Assembly (NCBI RefSeq): GCF_046105845.1
Contig: NZ_CP151004.1
Source: Escherichia coli
GTDB lineage: Bacteria; Pseudomonadota; Gammaproteobacteria; Enterobacterales; Enterobacteriaceae
Strand: one strand, 5' to 3'
DNA: 64,000 nucleotides
The stretch's first letter is position 1, and each line of letters begins with the position of its first letter. Both the position numbers and the translations under genes were made by a program. The notes below the pieces were generated by a model, which worked only from the letters and a program-made list of their open reading frames with translations, had not been told where the DNA came from and ran no database searches. Shown piece by piece: positions 49,683-50,195 of this stretch.

Positions 49683-50195
49683 TTAGCTGAGGCGTTGAGG
49701 GCCAGCACGGATGCCTTGCGCCTGGCTTATCCAGACGGGCGTGCTGAATTTTGCTTGCGGGGTAAAATGCGCATAATCAATGCGATAACCCTTTTCAGAC
49801 GGCGTGCCTTCCTGGGTCAACAGCGCGCTGAGCGTATCCAGTAATGCAAGATGTTGCGCCTGAAGAGGCAAAGATTCTTCAGCAACGGGCAGCGTTTGCG
49901 GTGCCATTGCGAAGGAAAGATGACGGATTACCGTGCGAATGGCATGTTGATGCCAGTAATCAACGGAATAGTTCGAATTCGGGCGGCGCGTGTTCGCTTC
50001 CAGCAAGGCCAATTGACCAAAGTTAACTTTGGCTGAAGGCTCGTGGTTGCGGGTTGTCGCTTTTGCGGGCGCGTTTGGTTCGGCGGCGTTGCTGAGCGCA
50101 GGCAAACCTAAACTCGCCGCGACCATCCCTAATAAGAGATGCGGCCAGAAGTAGCGTTTACCAAACTGTCGCCAGCGCGTCAGTATTCCACTCAC
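49683..50195 (-). CDS. secM: Secretion monitor (secA translation regulator)
   Basis: ORF 49683..50348; GTG at 50195 gives 170 aa with signal peptide and C-terminal arrest sequence. Confidence 0.92.
49698..49748 (-). promoter_or_regulatory. SecM translation-arrest motif [17 protein letters not shown]
   Basis: Exact arrest peptide (FxxxxWIxxxxGIRAGP) encoded at the secM 3' end. Confidence 0.9.

What the first reader, a model, noticed from the sequence alone, without database searches (positions are those of the whole stretch)
49683..50195. secM with intact arrest peptide upstream of secA
The arrest motif [17 protein letters not shown] is exactly conserved; secM starts at GTG. Known regulatory architecture; recorded because the start assignment differs from the longest ORF (221 aa versus the 170-aa product).
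Basis: partly seen in the sequence, partly recalled or inferred. Interest (0 to 1): 0.1.

Follow-up and report, generated by a model that had tools for sequence, protein, structure and literature searches.

The report
Ordinary E. coli secM, GTG start
This is the well-known E. coli secM gene, whose nascent peptide stalls its own ribosome to switch on the downstream secA gene; the annotated GTG start is correct and the longer open frame upstream is non-coding.

Summary
The finding is real and ordinary. Window 50195..49683 (minus strand) is secM: GTG start, 170 codons, TAA stop. It is 169/170 identical to E. coli K-12 SecM (T170S only), and the arrest motif [17 protein letters not shown] sits at residues 150-166. 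It lies 61 nt upstream of secA and has the coordinates RefSeq gives secM in a genome identical over the 831 bases compared. The 51-codon extension is not coding. GTG is conserved in 10 loci from about 9 genera. An in-frame stop sits directly before it in three genera and 5-15 codons upstream in five other loci. One E. coli strain has a frameshift in the extension. The TTG lies in the U-tract of the lpxC terminator. The dominant published K-12 transcription start maps to window 50232, 37 nt before the GTG and 116 nt downstream of the TTG. Only the GTG has a well-spaced Shine-Dalgarno element. Codons 2-23 evolve as coding sequence, so the old Met24 start also fails. The start was revised experimentally in 2000. 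Already known; interest very low.

The parts
49683..50195 (-). secM coding sequence: GTG start, 170 codons, TAA stop
   Evidence: same coordinates as RefSeq secM (WP_000014320.1) in a genome identical over the 831 bases compared; Pfam PF06558 4e-58 and NCBIfam NF002799 231 bits
50085..50195 (-). Signal sequence, codons 1-37 ([37 protein letters not shown]). It has a long basic N-region and its hydrophobic core is the strongest hydrophobic peak of the protein.
   Evidence: residues 1-37 are called the secretion signal in PMC6993859; residues 2-32 are nearly invariant across genera
50203..50209 (-). Shine-Dalgarno-like GGGAUGG upstream of the GTG. The scored 9-mer CGGGAUGGC ends 6 nt before the start.
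   Evidence: -6.5 kcal/mol against the anti-SD, top ~4% of random 20-mers in the window; a G-rich element holds the same position in 9 other loci
50196..50232 (-). 37-nt 5' leader of the main secM-secA transcript. The start at 50232 is the equivalent of K-12 107668.
   Evidence: Cappable-seq table of PMC4782308, mapped to the window
50239..50247 (-). Extended -10 promoter element TGaTAAGAT, ending 7 nt before the mapped transcription start
   Evidence: sequence -45..+5 around the start; one difference from K-12, at -27. The assignment as a promoter element is my inference from its position.
50356..50399 (-). lpxC intrinsic-terminator-like hairpin (7+7 bp interrupted stem)
   Evidence: -30.3 kcal/mol, z = -5.1, 0 of 200 shuffles fold as well; coordinates
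50346..50355 (-). U9 tract of the terminator plus the following G. The rejected TTG 'start' of the 221-codon ORF (50348-50346) is the last two U's plus that G. Tract length varies from T8 to T11 among E. coli strains.
50124..50126 (-). In-frame ATG at Met24. This is probably the pre-2000 'gene X' start, and the Pfam model begins here. It is not the main start.
49698..49748 (-). Arrest motif F150-P166, [17 protein letters not shown]. Stalling occurs with Gly165-tRNA in the P site and Pro166-tRNA in the A site.
   Evidence: mechanism from PMC10951299 and PMC10987492
49686..49699 (-). 5' arm of the helix that sequesters the secA ribosome-binding site (second base of the Pro166 codon through the Ser170 codon)
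49630..49643 (-). 3' arm of the helix (GCGGGGCG-U-UUGAG). It contains the GAG 8 nt upstream of the secA ATG.
   Evidence: the 3' arm is nearly invariant and the adjoining UUUGAGA invariant in the 10-locus alignment
46916..49621 (-). secA, 901 aa, the regulated gene

Best explanation
The segment is the secM gene of an E. coli strain. It sits in the standard core-genome order ftsZ - lpxC - secM - secA - mutT. Translation starts at the GTG at 50195 on a transcript that begins about 37 nt upstream, from a promoter located after the lpxC terminator. The 170-residue product carries a 37-residue Sec signal sequence and a C-terminal arrest motif. When the ribosome reaches Gly165 (P site) and Pro166 (A site), the nascent chain blocks peptide-bond formation. 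The stalled ribosome then sits on the 5' arm of a helix that otherwise pairs with the secA ribosome-binding site, so secA can be translated. Pulling on the signal sequence by active SecA/SecYEG releases the stall. secA synthesis is therefore tuned to secretion capacity. Taken from the literature on the near-identical K-12 gene: arrest, its release, secA induction and the transcription start. Inferred: that the stalled ribosome covers most of the 5' arm. That rests on the helix starting 1 nt into the A-site codon and on ribosomes protecting roughly 12-15 nt 3' of the P site, which is general knowledge.
For: Identity: 169/170 aa match K-12 SecM, with 7 nt differences of which 6 are synonymous. 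Pfam SecM gives 4e-58 and the NCBIfam equivalog 231 bits. RefSeq annotates identical coordinates, and K-12 b0097 also starts at GTG with 170 aa. Start codon: GTG is conserved in all 10 loci. The in-frame stop sits at codon -1 in Raoultella, Yokenella and Phytobacter, at -5 (five open codons) in Intestinirhabdus, and at -12 to -15 in Enterobacter, Salmonella, C. koseri and an Escherichia sp.. Protein conservation begins abruptly at Ser2, and the extensions in longer gene calls are unrelated to one another. Codons 2-23 vary at 3/1/9 sites by codon position with only 3 conservative amino-acid changes, whereas 65 of 66 sites vary in the 22 codons upstream. SD pairing is -6.5 kcal/mol at 6-nt spacing for the GTG and absent or badly spaced for TTG 50348 and GTG 50270. 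Transcript: the dominant Cappable-seq start at K-12 107668 scores 307 against 2.2-4.9 for its neighbours, and it maps to window 50232, downstream of both upstream candidates. The TTG lies inside the U-tract of a strong hairpin after lpxC. Within E. coli the U-tract varies from T8 to T11, and strain 50EVA has a 1-nt insertion that puts the TTG out of frame. Mechanism: the helix 49699-49686 x 49643-49630 appears in the minimum-energy fold and in the consensus fold of 10 loci. The literature supports the rest, and solved ribosome-SecM structures exist.
Against: No experiment has been done on this particular strain. The transcription start and the arrest are transferred from K-12, whose promoter region differs at one base (-27) and whose protein differs at residue 170. 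The helix has no compensatory double changes; its changes are single-sided, mostly wobble-compatible, with six single-sequence breaks across five pairs, so comparative support is conservation rather than covariation. In single-sequence folds of a 106-nt segment, only 6 of 10 loci give this helix as the minimum-energy structure. K-12 and the Escherichia sp. locus prefer a local hairpin that still pairs the GAG, and the Salmonella and Enterobacter folds differ. The simple promoter scan found no sigma-70 consensus match upstream of secM. Weak transcription starts and lpxC read-through could yield a few transcripts that carry the TTG.
Confidence: 0.97

Rival explanations
1. Translation starts at the TTG at 50348 and gives a 221-residue SecM with a 51-residue N-terminal extension. 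This is the reader's refutation scenario, with the codon corrected from ATG to TTG.
For: The frame is open from 50348 in this strain and in K-12. TTG is a permitted bacterial start codon. Some automatic gene callers produce longer SecM products of 174-225 aa. A weak transcription start at K-12 107495 (score 4.9) and possible lpxC read-through would carry the codon.
Against: The TTG lies 116 nt upstream of the dominant transcription start and inside the terminator U-tract. There is no SD at usable spacing: the best match is GGUG, 16 nt away. The extension is closed by in-frame stops in all 8 non-E. coli loci and frameshifted in E. coli strain 50EVA. The differences from K-12 in the extension are 5 nt giving 3 amino-acid changes, against 7 nt giving 1 change in the gene. 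No family profile matches the 51 residues. The hydrophobic core would sit about 70 residues from the N-terminus.
Confidence: 0.01
2. Translation starts at the downstream ATG, Met24 (50126), and gives a 147-residue product with a short conventional signal peptide. From my own recollection this is the older 'gene X' assignment.
For: It is the first in-frame ATG. The Pfam SecM model is 147 positions long and aligns from residue 24. The K-12 protein accession is at version .2, which fits an earlier, different start.
Against: Residues 2-23 are almost invariant across about 10 genera. Their codons show a coding-type substitution pattern, 3/1/9 by codon position. Conservation collapses immediately upstream of the GTG. 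The NCBIfam equivalog aligns from residue 3. The SD element is placed for the GTG. The 2000 revision paper and later work treat residues 1-37 as the signal sequence.
Confidence: 0.02
3. The arrest peptide is present, but this allele (S170, plus an intergenic A-to-G change) regulates secA measurably differently from K-12 because the helix that hides the secA ribosome-binding site is stronger.
For: The AGC codon for Ser170 restores a G-C pair that K-12's ACC breaks. The 106-nt segment folds at -20.0 kcal/mol here against -17.2 in K-12, and the minimum-energy structure switches. S170 is the ancestral state in all other genera.
Against: In both predicted structures the GAG is paired with probability about 0.98. 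The energy differences are small and come from a short segment. S170 is the state in all 16 other SecM sequences aligned and the same protein accession recurs in another E. coli strain, so it looks like the normal state rather than a special one.
Confidence: 0.1

Closest known systems
E. coli K-12 SecM (b0097, NP_414639.2; formerly gene X), the secretion monitor upstream of secA
   Same: Same position (lpxC - secM - secA), same GTG start, same length of 170 aa, 169/170 identical residues, identical arrest motif at 150-166, same 61-nt spacer to secA, and the same promoter -10 element and terminator.
   Different: T170S: the window carries the ancestral Ser found in all other genera. There are six synonymous changes in the gene, one A-to-G change in the secM-secA spacer and five substitutions in the 230-nt upstream region.
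Long-type SecM of other Enterobacteriaceae (Citrobacter, Salmonella, Enterobacter, Raoultella, Yokenella, Phytobacter, Intestinirhabdus)
   Same: GTG start, conserved residues 2-32, conserved [16 protein letters not shown] C-terminus, secA directly downstream, and a conserved UUUGAGA upstream of the secA ATG.
   Different: They are 164-168 aa long and 70-83% identical. Their upstream frame is closed 0-15 codons before the GTG, whereas E. coli proper happens to have 44-77 open codons.
Other monitoring-substrate arrest peptides (VemP, MifM, and short-type SecM / Pfam SecM_small)
   Same: The same logic applies: an upstream ORF with an N-terminal localisation signal and a C-terminal arrest sequence controls a downstream translocation-machinery gene.
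   Different: There is no meaningful sequence relationship. SecM_small scores below its cut-off here, 20.9 bits against 26.1.

Membership tests
SecM (secretion monitor, long type; Pfam PF06558 / NCBIfam NF002799) | Sequence match to the family profile above the curated cut-off | tested here: met
   PF06558 scores 195.9 bits (cut-off 25, E = 4e-58). The NF002799 equivalog scores 231.2 bits (cut-off 100) and covers model positions 1-168 of 169.
SecM (secretion monitor, long type; Pfam PF06558 / NCBIfam NF002799) | C-terminal arrest motif FxxxxWIxxxxGIRAGP, with Arg163 and Pro166 intact | tested here: met
   Residues 150-166 are [17 protein letters not shown]. The motif definition comes from PMC10987492 and PMC10951299.
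SecM (secretion monitor, long type; Pfam PF06558 / NCBIfam NF002799) | Located immediately upstream of secA on the same strand, within one transcription unit | tested here: met
   The secM stop is at 49683 and the secA ATG at 49621, a 61-nt spacer on the same strand. No terminator-like site was found on that strand in the spacer.
SecM (secretion monitor, long type; Pfam PF06558 / NCBIfam NF002799) | [quoted passage not shown] | tested here: met
   There are four basic residues in positions 7-14. The hydrophobic core [15 protein letters not shown] is the top hydrophobicity peak, followed by SNA|A. This was judged by inspection and a hydropathy scan only; no dedicated signal-peptide predictor was available. 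Residues 1-37 are described as the signal sequence.
SecM (secretion monitor, long type; Pfam PF06558 / NCBIfam NF002799) | The secA ribosome-binding site is sequestered in an mRNA helix that a ribosome stalled at Pro166 would open | tested here: met
   The helix 49699-49686 x 49643-49630 is in the minimum-energy fold (z = -2.6 for the 161-nt segment) and in the 10-locus consensus fold. Caveats: there is no compensatory covariation, and 4 of 10 single-sequence folds prefer other structures.
SecM (secretion monitor, long type; Pfam PF06558 / NCBIfam NF002799) | Actual elongation arrest, released by Sec-dependent export, with induction of secA | not testable with these tools
   This has been shown experimentally and structurally for the K-12 protein, which differs only at residue 170, outside the motif. 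For this strain it is transferred by inference.

The most novel reading that the evidence does not exclude
In E. coli proper the frame upstream of secM happens to be open. The rare transcripts that read through the lpxC terminator, or that start at the weak upstream site, carry the TTG at 50348. Low-level initiation there could make an N-terminally extended SecM whose signal sequence is buried about 50 residues in. Its export and arrest release would be delayed, which would couple some secA expression to lpxC read-through. Nothing positive supports this; the evidence only fails to exclude a trace level.
Probability: 0.01. Interest if true: 0.3.

Novelty: already known. Interest (0 to 1): 0.04.

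Why it matters
It matters little beyond annotation. secM is the textbook example of a nascent peptide that stalls its own ribosome to regulate a neighbouring gene. This copy is the standard E. coli gene with the standard start. The one practical lesson is for annotation: the longest-ORF rule overcalls secM, and public protein sets contain 174-225 aa calls. The transcript start, the terminator position and cross-genus stop codons together settle the true start without any new experiment.

Tried and rejected
1. I tried to read the primary start-site paper (Sarker, Rudd and Oliver 2000, PMC111006) and two related papers (PMC134986, PMC3134173). None is held. What the 2000 paper showed rests on its title, on how later papers cite it and on my recollection of its abstract.

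2. I looked for direct N-terminal or initiation-profiling data for SecM. The retapamulin profiling preprint shows a secM panel with the annotated start flagged, but no supplementary tables are held. Two N-terminomics papers have no SecM entry in their held supplements.

3. A literature search for the secM promoter and lpxC terminator found nothing. The transcription start came from the Cappable-seq supplementary table instead.

4. The simple promoter/terminator scan missed both the extended -10 promoter and the interrupted-stem terminator. The terminator was found by folding. The promoter element was found from the mapped start.

5. I looked for covariation support for the secM-secA helix and found none, because the helix is too conserved.

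6. The 221-aa reading (TTG 50348), a 195-aa reading (GTG 50270) and the 147-aa reading (Met24) were each considered and rejected for the reasons given under the rival explanations.

7. I did not use the large genome-collection scan. Exact-protein look-ups supplied enough orthologous loci at much lower cost.

Full report
**1. What is in the sequence**

On the minus strand, an ORF runs from GTG at 50195 to TAA at 49685-49683: 170 codons plus the stop, 513 nt. Residues 150-166, encoded at 49748..49698, read [17 protein letters not shown].

The same frame stays open upstream to 50348, which gives the 221-codon "longest ORF". The extension holds no in-frame ATG. Its only other start-type codon is a GTG at 50270.

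secA (901 aa) begins at 49621, 61 nt after the secM stop. lpxC ends at 50426, 230 nt upstream of the GTG.

**2. Identity**

- The 831-nt region is present once in 5,424 of 5,426 complete E. coli genomes at 95% identity or more.
- In a genome identical over those 831 bases, RefSeq annotates secM at exactly 50195..49683 in window terms.
- K-12 b0097 has the same GTG start and the same length.
- The protein differs from K-12 only at T170S. Of 7 nucleotide differences in the gene, 6 are synonymous.
- Pfam SecM gives E = 4e-58. The NCBIfam SecM equivalog scores 231 bits against a cut-off of 100.
- The window as a whole is an ordinary E. coli core-genome stretch, running from murE/murF through the dcw cluster, secA and the pdh genes to the folK/pcnB end. 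It comes from a strain other than the best secM match, at 97-99% identity over most of the span.

**3. Which start codon is used**

Five independent lines point to the GTG at 50195.

*(a) Cross-genus stop codons.* I compared 10 loci: the window, K-12, another Escherichia species, Citrobacter koseri, Salmonella enterica, Enterobacter, Raoultella, Yokenella, Phytobacter and Intestinirhabdus. The GTG is invariant in all of them. An in-frame stop sits directly before it in three genera, after five open codons in one, and 12-15 codons upstream in four other loci. Only E. coli proper has a long open extension.

*(b) Variation within E. coli.* The U-tract that contains the TTG varies from T8 to T11. 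Strain 50EVA has a 1-nt insertion that throws the TTG out of frame. The apparent "longest ORF" therefore differs from strain to strain, with 44, 56, 69 or 77 open codons, as expected of non-coding DNA.

*(c) Conservation pattern.* Protein conservation starts abruptly at Ser2. The N-terminal extensions seen in longer automatic gene calls are unrelated to one another. Codons 2-23 vary at 3, 1 and 9 sites for codon positions 1, 2 and 3, with three conservative amino-acid changes. In the 22 codons upstream, 65 of 66 sites vary. This also excludes the first in-frame ATG (Met24, 50126) as the sole start. Pfam's 147-position model begins there, and from my own recollection it was the original "gene X" start.

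*(d) Ribosome-binding site.* GGGAUGG lies at proper spacing from the GTG; the scored 9-mer CGGGAUGGC ends 6 nt before it and pairs with the anti-SD at -6.5 kcal/mol, in the top ~4% of random window 20-mers. A G-rich element holds this position in the other genera. TTG 50348 has only GGUG 16 nt away, and GTG 50270 has nothing.

*(e) Transcript structure.* Directly after lpxC lies a strong interrupted hairpin at 50399-50356 (z = -5.1, none of 200 shuffles as stable) followed by U9. The TTG is made of the last two U's plus a G. In the Cappable-seq table for MG1655 (Ettwiller et al. 2016, PMC4782308), the dominant start in this interval is 107668 with a score of 307. Its neighbours score 2.2-4.9. 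That start maps to window 50232, a G lying 7 nt after a TGaTAAGAT extended -10 element. It is 37 nt upstream of the GTG and 116 nt downstream of the TTG. Both upstream in-frame candidates are therefore absent from the main secM-secA mRNA.

**4. The question is already answered in the literature**

[quoted passage not shown] The reference is seen, but the paper itself is not held.

Later work treats residues 1-37 as the signal sequence and the ORF as 170 codons. This includes a retapamulin start-site profiling study that shows secM with its annotated start flagged and a 2.0 Å cryo-EM structure of the full 170-residue stalled complex. PDB entries with SecM chains were found by sequence.

**5. 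How it works**

The mechanism below is known from K-12. Only the anatomy was checked here.

- The literature places the stall at Gly165-tRNA in the P site and Pro166-tRNA in the A site. The RAG/P geometry blocks peptide-bond formation, and pulling on the exported N-terminus releases the stall.
- In the window, the minimum-energy fold pairs 49699-49686 with 49643-49630. The first arm runs from the second base of the Pro166 codon to the end of the Ser170 codon. The second arm includes the GAG 8 nt before the secA ATG.
- The same helix is the consensus structure of the 10 loci.
- A ribosome stalled with Pro166 in its A site would cover most of the 5' arm and free the secA ribosome-binding site. 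This step is my inference from the geometry.

Caveats: the helix shows conservation and wobble-compatible single changes, but no compensatory double changes. Only 6 of 10 single-sequence folds give it as the minimum-energy structure. K-12 itself prefers a local hairpin that still pairs the GAG. The window's Ser170 codon (AGC) keeps a G-C pair that K-12's ACC breaks. Ser170 is the ancestral state.

**6. Comparison and membership**

Every sequence-testable defining feature of long-type SecM is met: the profile match, the arrest motif, the position upstream of secA, the signal sequence and the helix over the ribosome-binding site. The arrest itself cannot be tested with these tools.

**7. Verdict**

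The feature is already known and the start-site issue is closed. Interest is very low.

Noticed in passing
window 50346-50399 (minus strand): After lpxC there is a strong interrupted hairpin followed by a U-tract. The tract length is polymorphic among E. coli strains (T8, T9, T10, T11). The simple terminator scan missed this structure because of its internal bulges and 10-nt loop.
   Followed up: yes
window 49686-49688 and 49654 (minus strand): Compared with K-12, this strain has Ser170 (AGC) instead of Thr170 (ACC), plus an A-to-G change in the secM-secA spacer. AGC restores a G-C pair in the helix over the secA ribosome-binding site. The predicted minimum-energy structure of the junction switches between the two alleles (-20.0 against -17.2 kcal/mol). 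Ser170 is the state in all other genera examined.
   Followed up: partly
window 49638-49652 (minus strand): A local hairpin, CUCCGC-AAC-GCGGGG, in the secM-secA spacer shares its 3' arm with the long-range helix, so the two are mutually exclusive. It is the preferred fold in K-12 and in the Escherichia sp. locus. Enterobacter keeps a hairpin there with a different sequence (GCCC...GGGC).
   Followed up: partly
window 52587-52676 (minus strand): There is a full-length Rfam match (105 bits, cut-off 69) to PssrA, 'Plasmid-encoded Shigella sRNA A'. Here it lies on the chromosome, covering the end of ftsA, the ftsA-ftsZ spacer and the first 9 nt of ftsZ. The family name does not fit this chromosomal context.
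   Followed up: no
window 46871-46940 (minus strand): An Rfam match to STnc40 (82 bits) spans the last 25 nt of secA and most of the secA-mutT spacer.
   Followed up: no
window 34891-35004 (plus strand): An Rfam match to the sRNA tp2 (103 bits) lies in the pdhR-aceE region, on the strand opposite to those genes.
   Followed up: no
window about 340-7858: The chaperone-usher fimbrial operon between folK and panB has no megablast match to strain 118UI, apart from one 79%-identical piece at 740-1337. The flanking DNA is 95-99% identical. This looks like a divergent allele of a variable fimbrial locus.
   Followed up: no
window 46359-46395 and 46250-46460: The convergent yacG-mutT spacer is where the alignment to strain 118UI breaks between two blocks. 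ORF translations there look like REP-type repeats (my impression, not tested). mutT is 132 aa here, as annotated in 118UI; I recall 129 aa for K-12, which I did not check.
   Followed up: no
protein database hits P0005-P0007, P0022, P0030, P0035, P0064, P0091: Public protein sets contain many over-long SecM calls of 174-225 aa, made by gene callers that picked upstream in-frame starts. In those included in the alignment, the residue before Ser2 reads V or L, which is the true GTG or TTG start read through.
   Followed up: partly
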